Part shown: positions 22,061-36,951 of the stretch, piece by piece | How positions within the stretch are numbered: the first letter of the stretch is position 1 | Layout: each line of letters starts with the position of its first letter | NCBI GenBank assembly: GCA_965222115.1 | Contig: CBDCTJ010000001.1 | Span: 1-64,000 of the forward strand | Source of the DNA: Planctomycetota bacterium | GTDB taxonomy: Bacteria > Planctomycetota > PLA2 > JAEUHO01 | Length of the DNA stretch: 64,000 nucleotides | Reading direction: 5' to 3' | The notes under the pieces: model-generated | Seen by the model: only the letters and a program-made list of their open reading frames with translations | Database searches by the model: none | Told to the model about the DNA's origin: nothing | Made by a program: the position numbers and the translations under genes

Positions 22061-23209
22061 TCAGGCTGGGACGCCAAAGGATTTGGCGGGTACCGCTTTC
22101 TCCGCCAGCCTCTCCTGCACCGCGCGAACGATGAAGGGCCACGTCACCGTGGCATCGGCAAGCACCTCGCTGTACTTCCCGCCGTGGCGATGATCGACGA
22201 ACTTCCCCCAGGACACGCCTTCGCTGTAGGTGCAGCCCGAGAGCCCGCCCCAATGAACCGGTTCGGGGCAGAGCCGGACACCGTATTGGAACTGACGCAA
22301 GGGAATCTCCTTTTGCAAGCGCACACGCATGATCTCGATGTAGGGCGCGACTTGTTGAGCCCAGTTGCGAGGAACGCCCCCGCCCACGGTAAAGATACCA
22401 ATCTTCGGTGCCGCCATCACTTGGGCGGTGTACTGCTCAAGGTCTTTGAACGCATCGTAGGTTGGATAGTCACGTCGTTCATCGCGGCATCGACGTTGGT
22501 AGAGCGCAATATCGAGCCCGATTTCTGAATCCGTAAGCGCGGGCACAAACACGGGGACGCCCTTGGCGGTGGCGGACTTCAAGATGCCACGCCCCTCGAC
22601 GTTCGCCGTGAGCCACTCACCGAGCAAACGATGAAAGTCGGCACTTGAATACACCAAGTCACGCGGCATGGCTTCGAGCACCTCGTACACAATGCGTTCA
22701 ATGTCGTCGAGACTCTGCTCCAACTCGAGCGTGTCGTACACACGATCGTAGCCCTTATCGTAAAGCTCCTGATCCGACATGTGAGGCGCGTATTTGAAAT
22801 GGGAACGGCCCGTTGCTTCCACAAACCCATGCGCCATGAGCGCGCCCGTGGACACGATGGATTGAATCCACCCGGCGTCGATCATGTCGCAAAGGACGAG
22901 CCCCATCTTGGCAATCGTCATAGCACCGCTGAGCGTGCACACCACCATGCACTCGGGATCGAGAATCATGGCTTCCAAGACGTCGGCAGCTTCGCCCAGC
23001 GATCGACCGGCGAACGCCGTCTTACTAAGCGCACGAACCAGATCGTCGGTGGACGACACAGTTCTCAAGTCGAGCGGCTCGAGCGCCTCCAAGCCATCGG
23101 AGACGCCGTCATGGAGCTTTCGAATCTCTTCAATGGGCGCGTCTGAGGCGGCACCGTCGCCGGACGCGGCGCCCTCGTGGGCATTGGGGCTGTGGGGACA
23201 TGACGTCAT
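22061..23209 (-). CDS. Deoxyhypusine-synthase-like protein (probable polyamine/homospermidine synthesis)
   Basis: IVSTGA, GYDRVYD, PVFVPALTDSEIG, GGGVPRNW, WGGLSGCTYSEGVSWGK (catalytic Lys retained), ADATVTWP. Confidence 0.92.
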   Translation of the reverse strand: MTSCPHSPNAHEGAASGDGAASDAPIEEIRKLHDGVSDGLEALEPLDLRTVSSTDDLVRALSKTAFAGRSLGEAADVLEAMILDPECMVVCTLSGAMTIAKMGLVLCDMIDAGWIQSIVSTGALMAHGFVEATGRSHFKYAPHMSDQELYDKGYDRVYDTLELEQSLDDIERIVYEVLEAMPRDLVYSSADFHRLLGEWLTANVEGRGILKSATAKGVPVFVPALTDSEIGLDIALYQRRCRDERRDYPTYDAFKDLEQYTAQVMAAPKIGIFTVGGGVPRNWAQQVAPYIEIMRVRLQKEIPLRQFQYGVRLCPEPVHWGGLSGCTYSEGVSWGKFVDHRHGGKYSEVLADATVTWPFIVRAVQERLAEKAVPAKSFGVPA

Positions 23210-23387
23210 GCCGTCTCCAAGATGGACGCGCGGAACGCTACGCGGGGTAGTGTCGCTACCGATCCATCGAAGCAAAGCGAAACCGGTCCAGTCGGTCGTG
23301 AACGCGTTCGTCCGGCGTCGAGGTCGAAGAGGCCAACATGAAGGTGTTCCGCACGGGAACCAAGCTCGATTGGCTTGGTCAGGTGCC

Positions 23388-29032: not shown

Positions 29033-30424
29033 TTAGTCGTCGTGGCTGAAGTTCGTCACGCGCCGGAGACCACCAATGTGGCGTTCGTCTGGACGGCCAT
29101 CGCGAAGCTTGGGTAGCGGCTTGTAGGGCGCCTTGGCGAAACGATACTGACCCAGCTTGCGCATAATGAGCGTGGACATGCGCTCGTCGTACTCAACTTC
29201 AGAGAAGTCACCCGCGGACCCGTAGACGTGTACTGCTTCGGTGGCAATGATCTGCCCGCGGAAGTAGGACGGCCCGTTGATATAGACCGACCCTTCAACA
29301 AAGATCATACCTTGATAGAAGCTGTTGGAACCGGTCTGAATGTGCAGATTGCCCTTGACCACCAGAATGCCTGAACCCCGCAAGGGGCGATCCACGGTGA
29401 AATAGGGATTGCCCTCGATGTACACCATCGCTGAATCGGGCATGCGATCCGGAAGCCCGTTTACCGGATCGGACGTGGCGATATCTGACATACCGCGAAG
29501 TTGGTCGTGGGACACGCCAAAGATATCTGTAACGCTTCCGCGGTAGTCCGGGACGGGAGTCAAGTCGCCGTAGATTTCGGCGCCGCTGTTCGTAGGGACA
29601 CCCGACAACTGCCCAAAGCCGGCGGCCGAATAGTGTACGACGCCCGCAGCATCGGTTCCGCCGCGTATACGCGCGTTGTTGCCAAAAACGATGTCCGAGC
29701 CATTCGTGCAGCAAACCGCCGCCTGCGCAGGCGGCGCGTAGGCAAGGCGTCGAATCTCGGTCTCAAGGGTGGCAGACGCAACGCGCTCGTTGGGCAATTG
29801 GTCAACCGGCACGGCTTCATCGCGAATGCGATACACCGATCCCCGACTGTGAAGTATCCAGTTGGCACCGAATCCAAGTACGTCGCGCGCATTGCTTACG
29901 TCACGCGTGCCGGTTGCGGCATCCCATCGACCGTTCGAGTTGAAGTCGTCGTATGTGTCTTCGAGGGGATTAAAGACCCCGTCGCCGTTGGTATCGGTCC
30001 ACGTTTCTGCGTCTTGCGCTTTCAAGACCTCATAACGACCCCAAAAGCCGGGGGAAATTTCAAAGGTCCGAACCAGACCCACGTTGGGATCTTCGGTTTG
30101 ATTTACGGGAGGATCCGCTGCCAGGTCGAGCTGCGGTGCAAAGCTATACACCGGTTGAACTTCTTGGCGCCTGAACCACGCATAGGCGTCGGTCAGGCCG
30201 GCGCGGGCGACTTCACGGGCATGACCCGTAGCCGAAAATTCCACGTCCGTGACGCGGTCAAGCGATTTGGTTTTCATCAGACCGGCGCCAATGATGCCCA
30301 TGATCATGAGCATGGAGATGGCCGTCCAAATGAGTACAACGCCTTGTTCGTTCGCGTTGCGATAGGTCGCGCGCGGTGCCGATTCCGCGTGCGTAGGAAA
30401 GAGAATGGTATTGGGTATTTTCAT
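29033..30424 (-). CDS. PilX/GspK-like pilin-type protein
   Basis: NEQG|VVLIWTAISMLMIMGIIG (no Glu5); AREVARAGL helix; two DxNGDG motifs; C-terminal GILVVKGNL beta-helix-like repeats. Confidence 0.8.
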   Translation of the reverse strand: MKIPNTILFPTHAESAPRATYRNANEQGVVLIWTAISMLMIMGIIGAGLMKTKSLDRVTDVEFSATGHAREVARAGLTDAYAWFRRQEVQPVYSFAPQLDLAADPPVNQTEDPNVGLVRTFEISPGFWGRYEVLKAQDAETWTDTNGDGVFNPLEDTYDDFNSNGRWDAATGTRDVSNARDVLGFGANWILHSRGSVYRIRDEAVPVDQLPNERVASATLETEIRRLAYAPPAQAAVCCTNGSDIVFGNNARIRGGTDAAGVVHYSAAGFGQLSGVPTNSGAEIYGDLTPVPDYRGSVTDIFGVSHDQLRGMSDIATSDPVNGLPDRMPDSAMVYIEGNPYFTVDRPLRGSGILVVKGNLHIQTGSNSFYQGMIFVEGSVYINGPSYFRGQIIATEAVHVYGSAGDFSEVEYDERMSTLIMRKLGQYRFAKAPYKPLPKLRDGRPDERHIGGLRRVTNFSHDD

Positions 30425-30805
30425 GGGATGTGGTGACTTCAGGGGGTTTCTGCTCGCGAACGACCCTCGTTTCATTTCGATTCGAGGGCCCACCGCAGAG
30501 CAAAGGACATTTGCAGTTGCCTTGGCAACGATCACGTGCACCGGGGAAGGCGGGGTAGGTGCAACCCAGCACCCAGACCTACGAACCTCGTGTTCACGTA
30601 ATCTGCCGGGCTCTCATCGACCGCCGCCGGCCCCCAAGTTGAGCCCATTCACTCGCACGCCTGGACATTCGCAAACAAGATGCTAAGTATTTGATAATCC
30701 GATGGTCCCAGATTGCGTGCGGGCCTGATCGAGTGAGGGGGAATGCCACGCGGCCCCCTACTATGGCGCCTCCTCGCTCAGATTGGCTTGGCGAGACCGT
30801 GACGT

Positions 30806-32170
30806 ATGAATGCCTTTCGGCAATTGACGGAGAGCTCCGTGCATCGAACGACGAATTCCAGTTCGTGGTGGCAGATGGTCGCCGCCTTTTTACTCGCCCT
30901 TGGGTTGCTTGCAGTTCCCGCGCTTGCCGACGACGACAAACCTGCCGGTGAAGTCGCCGAAGAAGAGAAGACTGATTCCGACAAAGAGGAAGAGGCCGCG
31001 CCCAAGACCATTCAGTGGGTCAAGGGGCTTGAGGATGGCCTCAAGGTTGCCAAAGAGGGCAACAAACTGGTGTTCCTCTACTTCGGTCGCGAAAAACCCG
31101 GCTGACCGCCCTGCAAAGCACTCGAGAGCCGTGTGTTCTCCAAAGATGGCAGCAACGAAATCAGCGATAAGTACGTAGCCGTAAAGCTCCTTGGCGGTGA
31201 CGATCTCGACGACGAAGGCAAAGCCGTTTCCAAGCGCTACGCCGTGCGTGGCTTCCCCACCATGCTTGGCCTCGATAGCAATGGCGCTGTACTTCAGTCG
31301 AGTTTTCCCCGATCGACCGAGGGCATTTTGACGGCGATGGAAGCCGCTGGAAAGGCGAAGGAGAAGTTCGCCGAGAAGCTCAAGGCGTTCGAGGCCAAAA
31401 AGGACGACGCCGACGCACAGCGCGACATGGCGGATCTCTACATTGAGCGTCGTCAGATGGAAGAAGCACGCCCTCTCCTGGAAGGACTCGCAAAGAAGGG
31501 TGAAGCCGACGACCTCATCAAGCTCATGAGCTGCTTGAGCGCACTTGAAGACAAAGAGGCCGCCAACAGTGTGATGGACACGCTCATCGAGAAGTTCCCC
31601 GAGCATGAGCAGTACGCTTCGTGGCGAATCACGAAAGCCATTGGCAACTTACCAAAGCCCCAACGTGGACTGGATCAAGAAGAAAACATCAAACGCTTGA
31701 CGAAGATCATCGAGTCGGTAGAGCCACTACTCAAGGACACCAAGGAAATGCATCACCATGCAATCCACGGACAGCTCATGGGTATGAAGGCCAATCTTGG
31801 CAAACATGAAGAGACCGCGATTCACGCCGAGTGGATCATCAAGCACGCGCCCAAGAGTGAGCATGCTCCTCAGGCGCTACTCATGTCTGCGATCTCCGCA
31901 ATCACAAAAGCGCGATCCGAGGATGACCTTAAAGCCGCCGAACGGGCGCTCAAGCTCTTTGAGCAACTGGCTGAGGAGCACCCGACTACGCGACCGGGCA
32001 TGATTGCTGCCCAACGTGGGGTTCCGCAGGCCAAGCAAACGGTGACGCTGATTCGAGAGAAGCAAGAGGCAAAGGCCAAAGAAGAGAGTGCCAAGGAGGG
32101 TGATGCCGAAGTAGAGGACGGCACTGAAGAGGACGCGGATAAGCCCAAGGAAGATGATCCAAAGAAGTAG
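30806..32170 (+). CDS. Exported thioredoxin-fold + TPR-like selenoprotein (UGA 31103-31105 = Sec; UPPC motif), 454 aa
   Basis: ORFs 30806-31105 and 31133-32170 are in the same frame. Read-through gives IQWVKGLEDGLKVAKEGNKLVFLYFGREKPG-U-PPC-KALESRVFS...YAVRGFPTMLGLDSNG, a complete thioredoxin fold. Signal peptide ends VPALA. Confidence 0.88.
31111..31152 (+). promoter_or_regulatory. Candidate bacterial SECIS element
   Basis: GAGAGC-cgtgt-GTTCTC hairpin (31124-31140); loop starts 25 nt after the UGA with G at loop position 2; possible lower stem CTGC/GCAG. Confidence 0.55.
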
Positions 32171-32209
32171 CCGTCCACGCTACCGCAAACGTACTTCATG
32201 AAACACGCT

Positions 32210-32251
32210 ACGCGCGCTTCGCACCACGGTGCAAGGCGCGCGTTCGTTTTT
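32210..32251 (+). terminator. Rho-independent terminator between convergent genes
   Basis: ACGCGCGCTT-c-GCACC-ac-GGTGC-AAGGCGCGCGT followed by tcgTTTTT. Confidence 0.7.
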
Positions 32252-32263
32252 GACTCTTCGGAC

Positions 32264-33262
32264 CTAACGCGCGTTGCGAATAGCCGTCAAGGCTCGCCGG
32301 ATTTCAACTTTGATCATCTTCTTACGCCACGAATGGGTGTGATCCGTATTGTCGAGTGGCTTCGCGGGACGCCACGCACTCGATGCGATGGCTTCAACAG
32401 CGTCATCCGTAAGCTTGGTTCCGATGAATTCTTTCGTCGCCTCGTCACATCGCACAGGCGTTGACCCCACCGCATTGAGCACAATATCCAAGGATTGAAC
32501 TTCGGGCGCCTTTGCATCCCGAGCAAGCTCCGCGCGTACAGCGACGGCCGCAACAGGAAAGTCGAACGAGCCTCGTCGCCGCACCTTGCGATAGACCGAG
32601 CGCATGTTGCCTTGCGAGGGAATGCGGATTGCCGTCAGCACTTCGTCGTCGCGCTTGGCGAGGTAATTGATCCCGTCATCCTGAAACAACGCATCCATGG
32701 GAATCGTTCGCTCCCCTTCGGGTCCCACCAATGTGACTTCCGCGCCCAGCGCCATGAATACCGGCACGGTATCGGAACTGTTGACGGCCCAACAACGCGG
32801 GCTGGACGGCGCCACCCAACACGTGTCGCCTTCGCATTTCATGCAGAAGTTAATGGCGCGGCGCCATTCGTAGTTCTGGTTGTAGTAGTTGCAGCGAGTG
32901 TCCAAGCACACGTTGCCGCCTATGGTGCCCATGGTGCGAAGCAGGGGCGTGCTGATGGATCGAACAGCCGTGGCGAGCGCCGGAAGTTGCTGACAAAAGT
33001 TGTTGTCGCGCTCAAGTGTACGCAACGTGGCGGCTGCGCCCAACGTGGTAGCGCCGTCGCGCTCCACGTGAATCTGACGAATGTCGCTAACGCCCCGCAG
33101 CGACACCACAACCCCCGGCGTTTGGTGCCTGCGCTTCATGTTCGGAAATAGATCCGTGCCACCAGCCACGACGCGCGCACGCGGACCTTCACTCGCAAGG
33201 ATATTCACTACGTCGTTCACGCTTGTGGGAGCGTGATAGGCGAAGGGCGGCAGTCGCATCAT
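32264..33262 (-). CDS. hcrB: Xanthine-oxidase-family FAD subunit with extra [4Fe-4S] loop (4-hydroxybenzoyl-CoA reductase beta-like)
   Basis: VAGGTDLFPNMKRR; MGTIGGNVCLDTRCNYYNQ...FCMKCEGDTC...RCWAVNSSD Cys-rich insert; RRRGSFDFP. Confidence 0.8.
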   Translation of the reverse strand: MMRLPPFAYHAPTSVNDVVNILASEGPRARVVAGGTDLFPNMKRRHQTPGVVVSLRGVSDIRQIHVERDGATTLGAAATLRTLERDNNFCQQLPALATAVRSISTPLLRTMGTIGGNVCLDTRCNYYNQNYEWRRAINFCMKCEGDTCWVAPSSPRCWAVNSSDTVPVFMALGAEVTLVGPEGERTIPMDALFQDDGINYLAKRDDEVLTAIRIPSQGNMRSVYRKVRRRGSFDFPVAAVAVRAELARDAKAPEVQSLDIVLNAVGSTPVRCDEATKEFIGTKLTDDAVEAIASSAWRPAKPLDNTDHTHSWRKKMIKVEIRRALTAIRNAR

Positions 33263-35739
33263 GAGGAAGCCACCTTCTTTTTGCGGCGAGGTGCCGTTCC
33301 GTCGCCCCCCTCGTCCTGGGTCTTTACGCGCATGGTTTTCGTGATGCCCATGTCGGGCATGGACTTGGGACCGTAGCGCTTGCTGCTTGACTGCATGGCA
33401 CGCAGTACCTTGTCGGGAGTAATAGGGATCTCATCGATGCGCACGCCCACGGCATCAAAGATTGCATTGGCCACGGCAGGCATGATGGGCAAGAGTGGTC
33501 CCTGACCAACTTCCTTGCCACCAAAGGGTCCTTGAGGATCGGGATCCTCGACCAGGTACGTAACGACATCGGGCATCTCGTGCGTCGTCGGACTCTTGTA
33601 TTCGAGCAATGACGGAATCTTGTGTACGCCGAAGCGATTGCCTCGGTAGGCCATCTCTTCCATGATGGCTTCGCCGAGGCCCATATAGACGCTGCCTTCC
33701 ACCTGCCCAATGACCGACATGTGATTGAGCGAACGGCCGATATCGTGTGCAATCCAAATTGTGCCCACCTTGACATCGCCCGTCTCTTCATCGACATCCA
33801 CTTCAACGACGGATGCGCTGTAGGAATAGGCGGGCGACGGACCCACGCCGGCACCGCGATAGCGACCCGGTGTTGGCGGCGGTGTATACGAGCCGGCCAC
33901 GGCGATCGTTCCCACCTTCGCTTCTGCAAATGAAACAGCGTCGGCGAAGGACATGCCGCGTTCGGGATCTTCCACGTCGTACACGCGGTTGTCGGCAAAT
34001 CGAAGGCGTTCCACCGGTACGTCGAGGTGTGTTGCGGCCACGCCCGCAACCTTCACGCGAGCTTTCGTTGCAGCTTCAATCGCGGCATTGCCAACCATGA
34101 GCGTAACGCGACTGCTGTAGCTGCCAAGATCAACCGGCGTGAGCTGTGTGTCGGCCACGTGGACGCGAATGTCGGTGAGGTTTACGCCCAGAACTTCTGC
34201 GACACAGGTCGCAAGCACCGTGTCGCTGCCCTGCCCAATCTCGGTTTCCCCACAGAGCACCGCAACGCCGCCGCCGCGATCCAACTGAACCGTTACGCCC
34301 GAGTGGGGCATGTTGTTCCAATAGATGGGAAGTCCTGCGCCGCAGATATAGGACGAGCATGCAATACCCACGCCTCGCCCACGCGGCAGCTTGCCGTACT
34401 TGGACTTCCAGTCGCTGCCCTCAACAACCTTTTCAATGCACTCGCGCAGCCCCATGGTTCCAATGCGAAGCCAGTTGGCGGTAACGGAGTTTGGCGGCTG
34501 AAGTTGTTGGAGGCGAAGTTCGGCGGGGTCCAATCCCAGTCGTGTTGCGGCGCGATCGAGCGACACTTCAAGTGCAAAACGAGGTTGGGGCGTGCCATGG
34601 CCGCGCTTGGGACCACACGGCGGCTTGTTGGTAAATGTGCGCACACCGTCAAATCGGTACGTGGGTACTTTGTAGGTCACGGTTTGCAGCGCACCCGTGT
34701 AGTAGGTACTCGCGACGCCGTAGGAGCCATAGCCCCCACCGTCAAGCAACGAGCGAAAATGCATGCCGGTGATGGTGCCGTCGTTCGTGAAGCCCATCGT
34801 GCATCGCATTTGCACCGGATGGCGACCACGATGGCAGTAAAATACCTCTTCGCGCGTCAAACAGATCTTCACCGGACGCTGCGTCATGAGCGCGAGCTTA
34901 GCAACCGCGATCTCGTGATTGAACGGATCGCTCTTCCCTCCAAATCCCCCACCATTGGGACACGCAATGACGCGAATGTGGGAGCGCGGCATGTCCAACA
35001 CTTTCGAAAGCGCGCGGTGCAGGTAGTGGGGCGTCTGTGTAGATGACCAAATCGTTAGGCGGCCGTCGGCATCGGGATTAGCAAGTGTCGCGTGCTGCTC
35101 GATGGGTAGATGCGTATTGCCCTCGTAGAAGTAATGATCATCAAGCACAAAGTCTGCCGCTTCGAGCGAAGCTTCGACATCGCCAAACTGCATTGAAACG
35201 CGCTTATGTACATTGCCGTCGTCGCCATAGTCGTGCATGGCTTCTACGTCATTCTTAAGCGCCTTGGCGGGCGAAAAAATGCCCTCAATTGGTTCATACG
35301 CCACGCGGATGGCATTCATGGCGTCGAAGGCCGCCTCTTCGCTCGTCGCCGCCACGGCCGCGACGGGATCGCCAATAAAACGAACTTTGTCAAGCGACAA
35401 GGCATGTTCGTCCTGTGAGACGGGCAAAATGCCAAACGTTGTGGGCAATGTTTCGCCGGTGAGCACGGCGACGACGCCGGGCATTGCTTCCGCAGCACGC
35501 GTGTCGATGGAGAGAATGCGCGCGTGGGCCACATGACTGCGATGAATCTTGCAATGCAACATGCGAGGCAACGACAGGTCATCAGCGAAACGCGTTGTGC
35601 CTTTCACCTTGTCGAAGGCATCCACCTTGATGGGTGAACCGCCAATCAACCGGTAGCCTTCCTTCAACTGCTGCGCAAGGCCCTCCTTGGCGCCGGCATC
35701 CGGGGATGGGCTGGCCTCGTCGGGAGCGTTGGCACTCAT
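33259..35739 (-). CDS. hcrA: Xanthine-oxidase-family molybdopterin subunit (4-hydroxybenzoyl-CoA reductase alpha-like)
   Basis: STQTPHY, GGGFGGK, HRGRHP, PCGPKRGHGTPQ, EIGQGSDT, DLGSYSSRVT, GQVEG, GPFGGKEVGQG. Confidence 0.8.
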   Translation of the reverse strand: MSANAPDEASPSPDAGAKEGLAQQLKEGYRLIGGSPIKVDAFDKVKGTTRFADDLSLPRMLHCKIHRSHVAHARILSIDTRAAEAMPGVVAVLTGETLPTTFGILPVSQDEHALSLDKVRFIGDPVAAVAATSEEAAFDAMNAIRVAYEPIEGIFSPAKALKNDVEAMHDYGDDGNVHKRVSMQFGDVEASLEAADFVLDDHYFYEGNTHLPIEQHATLANPDADGRLTIWSSTQTPHYLHRALSKVLDMPRSHIRVIACPNGGGFGGKSDPFNHEIAVAKLALMTQRPVKICLTREEVFYCHRGRHPVQMRCTMGFTNDGTITGMHFRSLLDGGGYGSYGVASTYYTGALQTVTYKVPTYRFDGVRTFTNKPPCGPKRGHGTPQPRFALEVSLDRAATRLGLDPAELRLQQLQPPNSVTANWLRIGTMGLRECIEKVVEGSDWKSKYGKLPRGRGVGIACSSYICGAGLPIYWNNMPHSGVTVQLDRGGGVAVLCGETEIGQGSDTVLATCVAEVLGVNLTDIRVHVADTQLTPVDLGSYSSRVTLMVGNAAIEAATKARVKVAGVAATHLDVPVERLRFADNRVYDVEDPERGMSFADAVSFAEAKVGTIAVAGSYTPPPTPGRYRGAGVGPSPAYSYSASVVEVDVDEETGDVKVGTIWIAHDIGRSLNHMSVIGQVEGSVYMGLGEAIMEEMAYRGNRFGVHKIPSLLEYKSPTTHEMPDVVTYLVEDPDPQGPFGGKEVGQGPLLPIMPAVANAIFDAVGVRIDEIPITPDKVLRAMQSSSKRYGPKSMPDMGITKTMRVKTQDEGGDGTAPRRKKKVASS

Positions 35740-36284
35740 TAGACGTCTTCCTCACCGCGCATACGCGCCGCCGCAAGTTCCACCGCCTCAAAGATCTTGA
35801 GATACCCCGTGCAACGACAGAGGTTGCCGGACAGCTCTTCTTTGATGGTGTCGCGGCTGGGATTCGTGTCGGATGCGAGCATGGCCTTCGCTACAAGCAA
35901 GAATCCCGGCGTGCAATAGCCACACTGTGCGGCACCAAGTTCCGCAAAGGCCTGTTGCAATGGATGCGTACCGTTGACGCCGGCCATGCCTTCCACAGTT
36001 TCGATCGAAACGCCATCGGATTCCAAGGCCAGGCGCAGGCAAGAAAGTTCTGCTTCGCCGTCGATCAAAACGGCACACGCGCCGCATTCACCCAACTCGC
36101 AACCGTGCTTGGTGCCCGTGAGACCCATATCTTCTCGAAGCACTTCGAGTAGCGTCTTGTGTGGAAAGAACGACACGTCCATGGATTCACCGTTGACCCG
36201 AAACGTGCGCTGTACTTTTCGCAGGTGACCTGTGTACGCATCGCCCGCGGGCGTCGCATCAACTGCCGCACCGTGATCACTCAT
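35739..36284 (-). CDS. hcrC: Xanthine-oxidase-family 2x[2Fe-2S] subunit (gamma-like)
   Basis: GTKHGCELGECGACAV, SCL, AQCGYCTPG, GNLCRCTGY. Confidence 0.8.
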   Translation of the reverse strand: MSDHGAAVDATPAGDAYTGHLRKVQRTFRVNGESMDVSFFPHKTLLEVLREDMGLTGTKHGCELGECGACAVLIDGEAELSCLRLALESDGVSIETVEGMAGVNGTHPLQQAFAELGAAQCGYCTPGFLLVAKAMLASDTNPSRDTIKEELSGNLCRCTGYLKIFEAVELAAARMRGEEDV

Positions 36285-36951
36285 CTGCGACTCCCCGTGA
36301 CGTCTCGCGCGCGCATGCGGTGTTCACCTCAACAGACCAACCGCGCAGCAGCGGCTCGACCAATCCAATAATCAAGTCGTTGGGGGTCCAAGTCCCCTCC
36401 GGACGCCACCACACCACCGTCCAGTTCAAGCAACCGAGAAACGCGAGCACTGCAAGCTTCACGTCCATCGGAGAGAACGTGCCGGCATCAATTCCCTGCT
36501 GAAGCATGGTACGCAACAGGGATTCGTAGCGGTTGCGCTTGGCTACAACGTCTTGCAACCGTTCATCGTCGAGCGCATAGAACTGAACATGCGCTGCACT
36601 TCCGCCAAGTGTGTCGAGCGTCGTGTCCAAGTGCACACGGGCCATCTTTCGCAGGCGCACTTTTACGGGTGCGGGATCATCAACCAGCGACTCCGCCGCG
36701 CCAATCAGCGAACTCAGCGCAAAGACTTGGCACGCGTAGAGCAGTTCCTGCTTGCTGGGGAAGTAGTGATAGAGCGCACCCGGGCGAATGTTCAAGCCGG
36801 CCGCAATTTCGCGCATGCCCGCACCGTGAAATCCCTTCCGTCGAAATACGACGGCGGCACGGCGAAGAATCTCCATGCGTCGGGCCTCGAAACGGCTGCC
36901 CTGATCGTCGAAATCGTCTCTCGAGGGGGCGAGGGGGTCACTTTGAACCAT
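36277..36951 (-). CDS. TetR/AcrR family regulator (KstR2/PaaR-like C-terminal domain)
   Basis: ILRRAAVVFRRKGFHGAGMREIA...ALYHYFPSKQELL; GCLNWTVVWWRPEG; overlaps the hcrC start. Confidence 0.92.
   Translation of the reverse strand: MVQSDPLAPSRDDFDDQGSRFEARRMEILRRAAVVFRRKGFHGAGMREIAAGLNIRPGALYHYFPSKQELLYACQVFALSSLIGAAESLVDDPAPVKVRLRKMARVHLDTTLDTLGGSAAHVQFYALDDERLQDVVAKRNRYESLLRTMLQQGIDAGTFSPMDVKLAVLAFLGCLNWTVVWWRPEGTWTPNDLIIGLVEPLLRGWSVEVNTACARETSRGVADE

What the first reader, a model, noticed from the sequence alone, without database searches (positions are those of the whole stretch)
30806..32170. Hidden exported selenoprotein: thioredoxin UPPC motif + TPR-like domain split by an in-frame UGA
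Seen: two annotated ORFs share a frame. The only stop between them (TGA 31103-31105) falls at the first, nucleophilic Cys position of a thioredoxin CxxC (FLYFGREKPG-TGA-P-P-C-KALESRVFS). The cis-Pro loop GFPT lies in the downstream ORF, so neither half is a complete fold. A hairpin GAGAGC-CGTGT-GTTCTC has its loop 25 nt downstream with G at position 2. Established: bacterial SECIS hairpins lie just 3' of the UGA with a G near the start of the apical loop, and UxxC thioredoxin folds are a common selenoprotein class. Inference: a 454-aa signal-peptide-bearing redox protein with a helical TPR-like interaction domain, divergently adjacent to the pilin cluster and possibly involved in disulfide handling of exported proteins.
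Basis: partly seen in the sequence, partly recalled or inferred. Interest (0 to 1): 0.9.

Follow-up and report, generated by a model that had tools for sequence, protein, structure and literature searches.

The report
Exported thioredoxin–TPR selenoprotein, split by annotation
The two "genes" are one 454-residue exported redox protein in which an in-frame UGA encodes selenocysteine at the active site; it belongs to a Planctomycetota family that public gene catalogues routinely cut in two.

Summary
ORFs 30806-31105 and 31133-32170 share a frame. The only stop between them, TGA 31103-31105, is the first position of a thioredoxin UPPC motif.

- **Conservation:** Of the 12 full-length orthologues found among 40 genomes of the same order, 9 have TGA at this codon and 3 have TGC or TGT. 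More distant Sec forms occur in three other families of the phylum.
- **SECIS:** A hairpin fitting the published bacterial SECIS model follows the TGA in all 9 Sec orthologues. Its synonymous sites are frozen. Across 16 Sec homologues, 4 of 8 pairs change on both sides.
- **Machinery:** tRNA-Sec, selA and selB are present.
- **selD:** It is frameshifted within the last 1.2 kb of a contig. Contigs from public reads point to assembly indels.
- **Genetic code:** TGA is otherwise a normal stop in this genome.
- **Structure:** An AlphaFold model (pLDDT 84.9) shows one thioredoxin fold spanning the TGA, followed by a TPR-like domain.

No NCBIfam selenoprotein model reaches its cut-off, and a 2026 inventory of 119 families lists no Trx-TPR entry. 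I read this as a new variant of the UxxC thioredoxin-fold selenoproteins. Its role as a periplasmic thiol-disulfide reductase or chaperone is inferred, and the link to the pilin-like cluster is weak.

The parts
30806..32170 (+). One coding sequence of 454 codons plus the TAG stop, read with UGA 31103-31105 as selenocysteine
   Evidence: It is collinear over its whole length with 8 orthologues, and profile matches of 390-554 bits were found in 12 genomes.
30806..30928 (+). Predicted Sec-type signal peptide (residues 1-41). The hydrophobic core is MVAAFLLALGLLAVPALA and the inferred cleavage is ALA|DDD.
   Evidence: Read from the sequence. All 9 aligned orthologues have an N-terminal hydrophobic segment, and three have a lipobox-like ...AC|G. 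No signal-peptide predictor was available, so this is inferred.
31007..31393 (+). Thioredoxin-fold domain (about residues 68-196), which spans the UGA
   Evidence: Pfam Thioredoxin_2 scores 28.2 bits against a cut-off of 27, over residues 82-159. In the AF2 model the beta-alpha-beta-alpha-beta-alpha-beta-beta-alpha elements cover residues 71-196, at pLDDT mostly above 88. Foldseek finds the DsbD C-terminal domain 1vrs_E (TMt 0.70) and DsbH 2ju5 (TMt 0.66).
31103..31105 (+). UGA read as selenocysteine (U100), the N-terminal nucleophilic position of the U-P-P-C motif (31103-31114)
   Evidence: This codon is TGA in 9 of the 12 full-length orthologues of the order and TGC or TGT in the other 3. 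It is also TGA in 7 more distant homologues.
31124..31140 (+). SECIS-like hairpin: 6-bp stem GAGAGC/GUUCUC and loop CGUGU (31130-31134), 24 nt after the UGA
   Evidence: The six core pairs are paired in 54 of 54 cells across the 9 Sec orthologues. Across 16 Sec homologues, 4 of 8 pairs show changes on both sides. Synonymous sites are frozen. The hairpin fits the bSECIS model quoted in PMC13188914.
31256..31258 (+). cis-Pro codon (P151 of GFPT) of the thioredoxin fold, downstream of the UGA
   Evidence: Invariant in 9 of 9 orthologues. Present in 57 of the 60 best database representatives; the 3 without it are fragments that start further downstream.
31409..32116 (+). All-helical TPR-like domain (residues 202-437)
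   Evidence: Pfam TPR_6 scores 30.9 bits and TPR_19 scores 27.0, both over their cut-offs. The AF2 helices 202-437 have pLDDT mostly above 90. Foldseek finds BamD 3qky, consensus TPR 8chy and the OGT TPR domain.
32117..32167 (+). Charged, low-confidence C-terminal tail (residues 438-454)
   Evidence: pLDDT of 48-60 in the last blocks. Poorly conserved in length and sequence among the orthologues.
29033..30541 (-). Divergent upstream neighbour (502-aa ORF, no family match). Behind it lie a 1428-aa and a 351-aa protein with weak prepilin-type N-termini.
   Evidence: No Pfam or NCBIfam family. The 1428-aa protein scores 19.9 bits on N_methyl, below the 21.2 cut-off. The 351-aa protein scores 16.3 bits on TIGR02532, exactly at the cut-off. 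The 502-aa gene lies next to the orthologue in 8 of 11 other genomes of the order, and in 0 of 9 more distant loci.

Best explanation
30806-32170 is one gene for an exported selenoprotein of 454 residues.

**Recoding.** During translation, SelB carrying Sec-tRNA(Sec) recognises the hairpin at 31124-31140. It then decodes UGA 31103-31105 as selenocysteine instead of stop. This is inferred from sequence comparison and has not been shown biochemically.

**Architecture.** The product has four parts:
- a signal peptide (a lipoprotein signal in some orthologues);
- a short disordered linker;
- a thioredoxin-fold domain of the DsbD-C-terminal / DsbH / Thioredoxin_7 type, with active site U100-P-P-C103 and cis-Pro151;
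- a TPR-like helical domain of about 240 residues.

**Likely function (inferred, about 50%).** It acts as a periplasmic thiol-disulfide oxidoreductase working in the reducing or isomerising direction. The selenolate of U100 attacks a disulfide or an oxidised cysteine in a client protein held by the TPR domain. C103 then resolves the mixed selenenyl-sulfide. The oxidised U-C pair is probably re-reduced through one of the two DsbD-type membrane proteins encoded in the genome.

**Annotation.** Gene callers stop at the UGA, so public catalogues hold only the C-terminal 345-residue piece.
For: **Sec/Cys pairing**
- Full-length orthologues were found in 12 of the 40 genomes of the order. Nine have one in-frame TGA and three have none.
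- The TGA sits at exactly the first Cys codon of CxxC in all nine. The three others have TGC, TGT and TGC.
- Seven further Sec homologues occur in three other families of the phylum, within a sample of 401 genomes of which 15 had a match.

**Conservation across the stop**
- Invariant residues lie on both sides of the TGA: Y92, G94, C100, C103, E107, D133, P151.

**One fold**
- The AF2 model has mean pLDDT 84.9 and pTM 0.71. U100 sits at the N-terminus of helix 101-111, and strands on both sides of the stop belong to one Trx sheet.

**SECIS**
- The hairpin has a 5-nt loop, a 6-bp stem, G-U at loop positions 2-3 and a 24-nt spacing. These meet the bSECIS constraints given in the Fig. 2 legend of PMC13188914.
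- Among the 9 Sec orthologues, 36 columns have an invariant amino acid with more than one possible codon. A single codon is used in 3 of the 4 hairpin columns against 4 of the 32 others (Fisher p = 0.018; related genomes are not independent).
- The loop Arg codon is CGT in 8 of 8 orthologues that have Arg there, against a 15% CGT share overall.
- Across 16 Sec homologues, 85.9% of cells pair and 4 of 8 pairs change on both sides. Only 2 of 500 shuffles reach the covariation score.
- In the four Cys forms I could locate, 13 of 24 core cells pair.

**Machinery**
- tRNA-Sec scores 71.6 bits and ARAGORN calls it SeC with anticodon tca.
- selA scores 480.7 bits and selB 346.6 bits.
- selB was found in 39 of 40 genomes of the order and selD in 38 of 40. 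In 35 of those, selD itself holds one TGA.

**The genome uses Sec elsewhere**
- TGA-interrupted Redoxin (UGPC), AhpC-TSA (UKPC), deiodinase-like (119.5 bits) and ArsC-family genes were found. Each has a hairpin at a similar distance from its TGA.

**TGA is not reassigned**
- It ends 718 of 2361 long open frames.

**Database signature**
- Of the 60 best representatives (E <= 1e-30), 33 begin just after the Sec position and 17 are full-length with CxxC.
- The window's own entry is the 345-aa fragment.

**Possible reductant**
- The genome has two DsbD_TM genes, at 158.5 and 85.1 bits.
Against: - **selD is broken in this assembly.** The match is 150.6 bits with 5 TGA and 1 TAA inside and several frame changes. 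If that were real, the cell could not make selenophosphate.
- **The repair evidence is indirect.** Logan contigs from two runs of one study, which may be the source sample, show 0-2 substitutions per piece against 52 indel differences (12 listed, 40 not shown). Only three of those indels could be applied.
- **Folding energy is unremarkable.** z = -0.39 for the stretch. The hairpin alone folds at -6.2 kcal/mol, above the -7.5 limit of the bSECIS model. Only the longer 60-63-nt fold, at -11.1 to -11.4, passes.
- **No covariation among close orthologues.** Within the 9, no pair changes on both sides. The frozen hairpin also overlaps the conserved peptide E-S/N-R-V-F-S.
- **No RNA family match.** Rfam gave nothing relevant.
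- **No direct evidence of the product.** I have no reads at the TGA, no RNA and no protein evidence.
- **Function is untested.** Redox direction, clients and the DsbD link are all inferred. No DsbA-family gene was found with PF01323 in a genome that is 90% complete, so an oxidase role cannot be excluded.
Confidence: 0.87

Rival explanations
1. The strain has lost selenocysteine synthesis because selD is a real pseudogene. This gene and the other TGA-containing genes would then be recent relics that terminate at UGA, leaving a 99-residue fragment and perhaps an internally started 345-residue TPR protein.
For: selD at C1:654443-655201 is the only selD-like gene over the cut-off, and it is interrupted by several frame changes and stops. 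A GTG at 31133 could start the downstream ORF.
Against: - The damage consists of indels only, with high identity wherever the frame is right.
- It lies in the last 1.2 kb of a contig. The whole final 2.7 kb differs from contigs of two runs by 52 indels and only about 5 substitutions. Both runs agree with each other against the assembly.
- Applying the three shared indels raises the SelD match from 174 to 236 bits.
- selA, selB and tRNA-Sec are intact.
- At least five TGA-containing genes keep open, coding-like frames on both sides of the TGA.
- selD was found in 37 of the 39 other genomes of the order.
Confidence: 0.05
2. The TGA is an ordinary nonsense mutation or a sequencing error (TGC/TGT read as TGA) in a Cys-type thioredoxin-TPR gene.
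For: Cys forms of the same orthologue exist in three genomes of the order. One base separates TGC or TGT from TGA.
Against: - The same codon is TGA in 8 other independently assembled genomes of the order, which are only 28-41% identical in protein. It is also TGA in 7 more distant homologues.
- Both flanks are under evident purifying selection.
- A conserved hairpin follows the TGA only in the Sec forms: 54 of 54 core cells pair, against 13 of 24 in the Cys forms.
Confidence: 0.02
3. There are two separate genes: a small exported 99-residue peptide and an independent 345-residue TPR protein, as the gene catalogues have it.
For: The public protein collection holds the 345-aa product as a gene call. 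In addition, 33 of 60 family representatives start at the equivalent point.
Against: - Neither piece is a complete fold. Strands and helices 71-130 and 136-196 form one thioredoxin domain across the stop.
- The 345-aa piece would lack a signal peptide and the active site.
- Full-length single-ORF Cys forms exist (17 of 60).
- The start points of the truncated calls simply follow the first ATG or GTG after the TGA.
Confidence: 0.03
4. UGA is read through here by something other than the Sec machinery, either a reassigned code or near-cognate Trp/Cys insertion.
For: Some uncultured bacteria read TGA as Trp or Gly (recalled, not tested by a call).
Against: - TGA ends 718 of 2361 long open frames.
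- Only one TGA in the genome has 50 or more coding-like codons on both sides.
- Homologues have Cys at the position, never Trp or Gly.
- A dedicated tRNA-Sec, selA and selB are present.
Confidence: 0.03

Closest known systems
'Thiol:disulfide interchange protein' selenoprotein family (PF13098, UxxC) in Table 1 of the 2026 prokaryotic selenoproteome review, PMC13188914 (section 7 read)
   Same: Both have a thioredoxin-fold domain that matches Pfam Thioredoxin_2 (28.2 bits against a cut-off of 27). Both have a UxxC motif with Sec at the N-terminal nucleophilic position and Cys-containing homologues.
   Different: This protein carries a signal peptide and a TPR-like domain of about 240 residues. 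It is confined, so far as I searched, to Planctomycetota. The Pfam score is marginal. I could not fetch the review's representative sequence (WP_011366075.1), so no direct comparison was made.
DsbD C-terminal (gamma) domain, DsbH, and Thioredoxin_7-type periplasmic reductases
   Same: These are the closest solved folds and sequences for the Trx domain:
- Foldseek finds 1vrs_E (TMt 0.70, rmsd 3.2) and DsbH 2ju5 (TMt 0.66).
- The profile search against PDB finds 2kuc 'putative disulphide-isomerase' at E = 3e-9 and DsbD C-terminal domains at 0.003-0.007.
- All are exported, with a CxxC and a cis-Pro.
   Different: It has no DsbD membrane domain; NCBIfam DsbD scores 26.2 bits against a cut-off of 330. 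It has Sec instead of Cys, and an added TPR domain.
CnoX/YbbN chaperedoxins (Trx domain linked to a TPR domain; abstracts of PMC10998233 and PMC8129009 seen in the listing)
   Same: Both have the same two-domain logic, a thioredoxin fold followed by a TPR domain. There are Pfam TPR_19 and TPR_20 hits. Some family members have [S/D/N]xxC in place of CxxC (5 of 60), which recalls the SQHC of E. coli YbbN named in the PMC10998233 abstract.
   Different: - CnoX is cytoplasmic and works with GroEL and DnaK; this protein has a signal peptide.
- No YbbN or CnoX chain appeared among the 60 PDB sequence matches shown, of 97 found, nor in the Foldseek rows shown (ranks 1-49).
- The resemblance is therefore one of architecture only, and not one of membership.
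NCBIfam thioredoxin-type selenoprotein models: VPGUxxT family types 1 and 2 (NF041382, NF041383), Trx7/PDZ (NF041199), TsoB (NF045694)
   Same: These are the nearest curated selenoprotein models, and they match weakly over the Trx N-terminal half.
   Different: All are far below their cut-offs: 27.3 against 350, 20.5 against 275, 17.4 against 300 and 22.3 against 805. The motifs also differ (VPGUxxT and CxxU against UPPC).

Membership tests
Bacterial selenoprotein gene (UGA decoded as Sec) | The in-frame UGA aligns with Cys in homologues (a Sec/Cys pair) | tested here: met
   The three orthologues without TGA have TGC, TGT and TGC at the same codon. In addition, 17 of 60 database representatives are full-length with CxxC.
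Bacterial selenoprotein gene (UGA decoded as Sec) | The UGA is conserved at the same codon in other organisms | tested here: met
   9 of the 12 full-length orthologues in the order, and 7 more distant homologues in other families of the phylum.
Bacterial selenoprotein gene (UGA decoded as Sec) | A bSECIS hairpin: 3-9 nt loop, 4-16 bp stem, G in the first two loop positions, 16-37 nt from the UGA, MFE <= -7.5 (Fig. 2 legend of PMC13188914) | tested here: met
   The loop is 5 nt (CGUGU), the stem is 6 bp and the spacing is 24 nt. On energy, the hairpin alone gives -6.2 kcal/mol, while the 60-63 nt fold gives -11.1 to -11.4. The energy criterion is therefore met only for the longer fold. Conservation and covariation are shown.
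Bacterial selenoprotein gene (UGA decoded as Sec) | selC, selA and selB in the genome | tested here: met
   tRNA-Sec scores 71.6 bits and ARAGORN calls it SeC(tca). selA scores 480.7 bits and is split across the end of contig C1 and the start of C7. selB scores 346.6 bits.
Bacterial selenoprotein gene (UGA decoded as Sec) | An intact selD (selenophosphate synthetase) | tested here: inconclusive
   selD is present but frameshifted in the assembly. Read-derived contigs indicate indel errors at this contig end, and three shared indels raise the match from 174 to 236 bits. The full frame was not reconstructed.
Bacterial selenoprotein gene (UGA decoded as Sec) | Selenium is actually incorporated at the UGA | not testable with these tools
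   This needs 75Se labelling or mass spectrometry.
Thioredoxin-fold thiol-disulfide oxidoreductase | A CxxC-type motif at the N-terminus of helix alpha-1, a cis-Pro loop, and a Trx beta-alpha topology | tested here: met
   In the AF2 model U100 lies just before helix 101-111 and P151 just before strand 152-156, with pLDDT of 88-97 over the domain. C100, C103 and P151 are invariant. Pfam PF13098 is over its cut-off.
VPGUxxT thioredoxin-like selenoprotein family (NF041382 / NF041383) | Score over NCBIfam's curated cut-off, and a VPGUxxT motif | tested here: not met
   27.3 bits against 350 and 20.5 against 275. The motif is [GTQK]UPPC in the orthologues.
Trx7/PDZ (seleno)protein (NF041199) | Score over the cut-off, a CxxU motif, and a PDZ domain | tested here: not met
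   17.4 bits against 300. The motif is UxxC, and Pfam finds no PDZ domain.
CnoX/YbbN chaperedoxin | A cytoplasmic Trx-TPR protein related in sequence to YbbN | tested here: not met
   The Trx-then-TPR architecture is present. However, the protein has an N-terminal signal sequence. No YbbN or CnoX chain was among the PDB sequence or fold matches shown.
DsbD (thiol:disulfide interchange protein) | Full-length DsbD with a membrane domain; NCBIfam NF001419 over its cut-off | tested here: not met
   26.2 bits against 330, matching only the C-terminal domain. The DsbD_TM genes lie elsewhere in the genome.

The most novel reading that the evidence does not exclude
This is a previously unrecognised selenoprotein family specific to Planctomycetota: a periplasmic 'seleno-chaperedoxin'. 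A TPR client-binding domain is fused to a DsbD-gamma-like Trx domain whose nucleophile is Sec in most members. About 33 of 60 representative clusters appear to be Sec forms that are truncated in the databases. In this reading it would protect or reduce cysteines of exported proteins, possibly the neighbouring pseudopilin-like proteins, under oxidising conditions. That would make it the envelope counterpart of cytoplasmic CnoX.
Probability: 0.25. Interest if true: 0.6.

Novelty: new variant of a known kind. Interest (0 to 1): 0.45.

Why it matters
- **Annotation.** A whole family is wrong in public catalogues. About half of its representatives (33 of 60 at E <= 1e-30) are stored as N-terminally truncated proteins. 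These lack their signal peptide and active site, and no curated model currently rescues them.
- **Biology.** It adds an exported, two-domain (Trx-TPR) type to the UxxC selenoproteins. It also shows that this order of Planctomycetota uses Sec almost universally: selB was found in 39 of 40 genomes, and selD was found in 38 of 40 and holds a single in-frame TGA in 35 of them. The genome studied here carries several envelope redox selenoproteins.
- **An evolutionary series.** The family contains Sec, Cys and [S/D/N]xxC forms side by side. That makes it a natural series for asking what Sec buys a periplasmic oxidoreductase.
- **Limits.** The mechanism of recoding is standard, and new Trx-like selenoprotein families are found regularly. 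The finding is solid but not surprising to a specialist.

Tried and rejected
- **Rfam** (E up to 10, 30000-33000): only a chance snoRNA match. This says nothing about the hairpin.
- **Folding energy** of the stretch: not different from shuffles. I dropped it as an argument.
- **Covariation within the 9 close orthologues**: none, because the hairpin is nearly invariant. More distant Sec homologues were needed.
- **The search for homologous proteins**: it returned only the window's own 345-aa fragment and two weak hits, because only the 8000 candidates sharing the most words were scored. It was of no use for Sec/Cys pairing.
- **The search for related loci with alignment A1**: it failed because no stretch was conserved enough. 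Rerunning with the 5-row alignment A2 gave 6 loci, all Planctomycetota MAGs, and 4 of them were the same genes as G-handle loci.
- **Promoter and terminator scan**: no sigma-70-like promoter and no terminator after the gene on the + strand. Uninformative for this phylum.
- **Second own-genome match** C7:721006-721677 with 2 TGAs: I found no Trx-like U/CxxC context there. It is probably a match to the helical repeats in another frame, and I did not follow it further.
- **Sec/Cys form against presence of the Sec machinery:** no contrast is possible. The three Cys-form genomes also have selB and selD.
- **Synteny as a clue to function:** the divergent 502-aa neighbour is kept in 8 of 11 other orthologue loci of the order, but in 0 of 9 more distant homologue loci. 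Shared ancestry explains this as well as function does.
- **Cys-form hairpin control**: my motif pattern located the site in only 4 of 10 loci. The 6 not located (L062, L066, L067, L068, L094, L098) were left out of the 13-of-24 count.
- **Read laying**: the two runs come from one study, are held as contigs only, and may be the source sample. They say nothing about expression, and I did not lay them on the TGA.
- **Literature:** two full-text searches found no paper joining a bacterial selenoprotein with a TPR domain. Supplementary tables were closed, for example S9 of PMC4807772, which lists planctomycete selenoprotein candidates. Those tables, or the supplements of the papers behind the review's Table 1, could already list this family.
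Full report
**1. The observation**

The window holds an ORF at 30806-31105 (99 aa, ending ...FLYFGREKPG then TGA) and an ORF at 31133-32170 (345 aa) in the same frame. Reading 30806-32170 with TGA as U gives 454 residues with a single recoded codon, U100, in the context GREKPG-U-PPC-KALESRVFS. The GFPT cis-Pro loop (P151) lies downstream of the stop. The hairpin GAGAGC-CGUGU-GUUCUC lies at 31124-31140, with 24 nt between the UGA and its loop.

The hairpin is not exceptional by folding energy: z = -0.39, and 63 of 200 shuffles fold as well. Rfam finds nothing relevant.

**2. Is the TGA more than a chance stop?**

I trained a codon-usage score on this genome's long ORFs. I then asked for every TGA with at least 50 coding-like codons on both sides. 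The 4.55-Mb genome has exactly one such site, and it is this one. TGA otherwise ends 718 of 2361 open frames of 300 codons or more, so the code is not reassigned.

**3. Homologues**

- **First search.** A search of 41 related genomes with the read-through protein found matches in 28. The best full-length ones carried '1 TGA' inside. Translating the loci showed the TGA at exactly the first Cys position of the CxxC.
- **Alignment.** A 9-sequence alignment (A1) is collinear from the signal peptide to the C-terminus. Residues Y92, G94, C100, C103, E107, D133 and P151 are invariant, so conservation runs across the stop.
- **The order.** With the A1 profile, all 40 genomes held for the order were searched. 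Twelve have a full-length orthologue (390-554 bits). Nine of these have one TGA (G000, G001, G004, G008, G011, G022, G042, G043, G044). Three have none (G003, G009, G020), and they read TGC, TGT and TGC.
- **The phylum.** In a sample of 401 genomes of the phylum, 15 have a match at E <= 1e-20. These include full-length Sec forms in three further families.
- **Organisms.** Named records found in genome contigs are all Planctomycetota or Planctomycetia MAGs.

**4. The public protein catalogues**

The word-indexed collection holds only the 345-aa C-terminal piece of this gene. A profile search of 1.84 billion representatives gave 60 proteins at E <= 1e-30. After alignment to the profile they fall into these groups:

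| Group | Count of 60 |
|---|---|
| Begin just after the Sec position, typically MFS..., MENRVFS... or V.LENRVFS... | 33 |
| Shorter fragments | 3 |
| Full-length with CxxC | 17 |
| [S/D/N]xxC | 5 |
| CxxS | 1 |
| Neither cysteine | 1 |

For four of the truncated entries I hold the DNA, and it has TGA at the site (L090, L091, L093, L097). For the rest, Sec is inferred from the truncation point.

**5. SECIS**

The 2026 review PMC13188914 (passages and section 7 read; Fig. 2 legend) gives the bacterial model:

- a loop of 3-9 nt;
- a stem of 4-16 bp;
- G in the first two loop positions, mostly followed by G or U;
- 16-37 nt between the UGA and the loop;
- MFE <= -7.5 kcal/mol.

The hairpin here has a 5-nt loop CGUGU, a 6-bp stem and a 24-nt spacing. 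Its energy is -6.2 kcal/mol alone and -11.1 to -11.4 for the 60-63-nt fold.

*Close orthologues.* All 9 Sec orthologues have the hairpin at the same place, and the six core pairs are paired in 54 of 54 cells. They show only one-sided A-U/G-U changes. The hairpin overlaps conserved residues, so I looked at synonymous sites:

- The 9 Sec orthologues have 36 columns with an invariant amino acid that has more than one possible codon.
- A single codon is used in 3 of the 4 hairpin columns against 4 of the 32 others (Fisher p = 0.018).
- The loop Arg is CGT in 8 of 8, against a 15% CGT share overall.
- Related genomes are not independent, so these figures are rough.

*More distant homologues.* Adding the distant Sec homologues gives 16 sequences. 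Then 85.9% of cells pair and 4 of 8 pairs change on both sides, for example C-G to G-C at the stem top. The covariation score is reached by 2 of 500 shuffles, and all slid registers score lower.

*Cys forms.* The four Cys forms I could locate pair in 13 of 24 core cells. Six loci were not located and were left out.

*Other candidates in this genome.* Their hairpin loops, each containing GU, begin at a similar distance downstream of the TGA.

**6. Machinery**

- tRNA-Sec scores 71.6 bits, and ARAGORN calls it SeC with anticodon tca.
- selA scores 480.7 bits and is split over the end of contig C1 and the start of C7.
- selB scores 346.6 bits.
- Across the order, selB is found in 39 of 40 genomes and selD in 38 of 40. 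In 35 of those, selD holds one TGA, so SelD is itself a selenoprotein in this lineage.

The exception is this genome's selD. It scores 150.6 bits with several frame changes, and it lies within the last 1.2 kb of contig C1.

I used the single run search and the single read-laying run here. Two runs of one study hold the stretch as contigs. Their pieces carry 0-2 substitutions each, apart from one short piece beside a skip joint that has five, but many gaps. In all there are 52 indel differences, of which 12 are listed. The two runs agree with each other against the assembly at 1748, 1849 and 1854 of L019, which lie inside selD. Applying just those three raises the SelD match from 174 bits (46.5% identity) to 236 bits (57.0% identity).

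I conclude, as an inference, that the contig end carries assembly indels and that selD is intact in the organism.

**7. Other Sec use in the genome**

A relaxed scan gave 144 sites. The credible ones are:

- a Redoxin-type protein with UGPC (L084);
- an AhpC-TSA/Redoxin protein with UKPC (L085);
- a deiodinase-like protein with SYTUGPF (119.5 bits, L086);
- an ArsC-family protein with UxxC (L087).

Two further sites (L088 with FG-GAP repeats, and L089 with no family) are uncertain.

**8. What the protein is**

- **Pfam:** Thioredoxin_2 (28.2 bits, cut-off 27), TPR_6 and TPR_19 are over their cut-offs. Thioredoxin_7, Thioredox_DsbH and TPR_20 are below theirs.
- **Model:** AlphaFold2 on A1 gives mean pLDDT 84.9 and pTM 0.71. 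It shows a low-confidence N-terminal helix 19-35 and linker 37-63, a canonical thioredoxin fold over residues 71-196 with U100 just before helix 101-111, and an all-helical domain over residues 202-437.
- **Fold search:** Foldseek matches the helical part to BamD, consensus TPR proteins and the OGT TPR domain. It matches the Trx part to DsbH (TMt 0.66) and the DsbD C-terminal domain (TMt 0.70).
- **Sequence search against PDB:** the profile finds a 'putative disulphide-isomerase' 2kuc (E = 3e-9), a Thermus thioredoxin, DsbD C-terminal domains and TXNDC12.
- **Export signal:** the N-terminus has a hydrophobic core and ALA|DDD. Three orthologues have a lipobox-like AC|G.
- **Redox partners:** the genome has two DsbD_TM genes. 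No DsbA was found with PF01323 (the genome is 90% complete).

From this I infer a periplasmic thiol-disulfide reductase or isomerase with a TPR client-binding module.

**9. Neighbourhood**

The gene stands alone on the + strand.

- *Upstream, divergent:* a 502-aa protein with no family, then a 1428-aa protein (N_methyl 19.9 bits, below the 21.2 cut-off) and a 351-aa protein (prepilin-type domain exactly at its cut-off).
- *Downstream, convergent:* a TetR gene and a molybdenum-hydroxylase operon.

The 502-aa neighbour is kept in 8 of 11 other orthologue loci of the order, but in 0 of 9 more distant loci. The three upstream proteins have 3, 12 and 1 cysteines as read. The pilin link is therefore weak.

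**10. Comparison with what is known**

- **Curated models:** no NCBIfam model reaches its cut-off. The nearest selenoprotein models are far below theirs: NF041382 at 27.3 against 350, NF041383 at 20.5 against 275, NF041199 at 17.4 against 300 and NF045694 at 22.3 against 805.
- **The review's inventory:** Table 1 lists 119 families. [quoted passage not shown] The word Planctomyc does not occur in the paper.
- **Planctomycetes:** PMC4807772 reports Sec machinery and selenoproteins in the phylum (passages read). Its candidate table is a supplement that I could not open.
- **Architecture:** the Trx-TPR layout parallels cytoplasmic CnoX/YbbN (abstracts in the listing). No sequence or fold match to YbbN appeared.
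- **Literature searches:** two searches found no description of a bacterial Trx-TPR selenoprotein.

**11. Verdict**

This is a genuine selenoprotein gene that has been mis-split by annotation. It represents a Planctomycetota family that mostly uses Sec.

- Kind: a new variant of the known UxxC thioredoxin-fold selenoproteins.
- Confidence that it is a Sec-decoding gene: about 0.87.
- Confidence in the proposed periplasmic reductase/chaperone role: about 0.5.
- Interest: 0.45.

Noticed in passing
L084 (G000:C7:2027845-2028981) and L085 (G000:C3:119769-120752): Two further TGA-interrupted genes encode exported Redoxin/AhpC-TSA (ResA/TlpA-like) proteins with UGPC and UKPC motifs. Each has a helical, lysine-rich C-terminal domain that weakly matches the C-terminal part of NCBIfam NF041382. 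A hairpin follows each TGA.
   Followed up: partly
L086 (G000:C1:255070-255885, minus strand) and L087 (G000:C3:297310-297669): L086 is a deiodinase-like protein with an EF-hand and SYT-U-GPF (PF00837, 119.5 bits). L087 is an ArsC-family protein with GT-U-SSC. Both are interrupted by one TGA and are probably selenoproteins of known families.
   Followed up: partly
L088 (G000:C7:2599830-2601242, minus strand) and L089 (G000:C7:1528367-1529554): L088 is an FG-GAP-repeat protein with VPGVW-U-CASS. L089 is a family-less exported protein with ACT-U-GPAW near its C-terminus. Both have coding-like sequence on both sides of a TGA, but whether they are selenoproteins is uncertain.
   Followed up: no
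L019 (G000:C1:652943-655637) and L009 (G000:C7:1-2829): selD is riddled with frame changes in the last 1.2 kb of contig C1. selA is split between the end of C1 and the start of C7, so these two contigs are neighbours. Read-derived contigs differ from this contig end by 52 indels and about 5 substitutions.
   Followed up: yes
G000 contig C6 (48116 bases): Contig C6 has 39.7% G+C against 55-59% for the other six contigs. It may be a binning contaminant or a mobile element.
   Followed up: no
L031/L064, L032/L065, L035/L063, L037 (genomes of sister family f2); also L033, L036, L042 and L071: A related, shorter subfamily has the motif FAYF[TS]RSY[AS]P-U-PPC (L071 reads R-U-GPC), often as two tandem copies. 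It has its own hairpin, GA[G/A]GGC-GGN-GCC[C/U]UC, at the same distance from the TGA. The A-U to G-C change is compensatory.
   Followed up: partly
P0031, P0039, P0041, P0043, P0058, P0051, P0047: Full-length members of the family have lost one or both redox residues ([S/D/N]xxC, CxxS, or neither). This recalls the SQHC of E. coli YbbN, and it suggests that some members act without a dithiol or selenol-thiol pair.
   Followed up: no
window 32264-36951, minus strand: This is a convergent operon of a molybdenum hydroxylase: FAD-binding subunit, 826-aa MoCo subunit, 2Fe-2S subunit, and a TetR regulator. The FAD subunit also lies next to the orthologue in G011, G009 and G020.
   Followed up: partly
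window 22061-23275, minus strand: A deoxyhypusine synthase homologue (PF01916, 250.1 bits) lies next to the pseudopilin-like cluster.
   Followed up: no
G000:C7:721006-721677, minus strand (L070): This is a weak second match of the family profile (74.9 bits) with 2 TGAs inside a very long stop-poor frame. I saw no Trx-like CxxC context there.
   Followed up: partly
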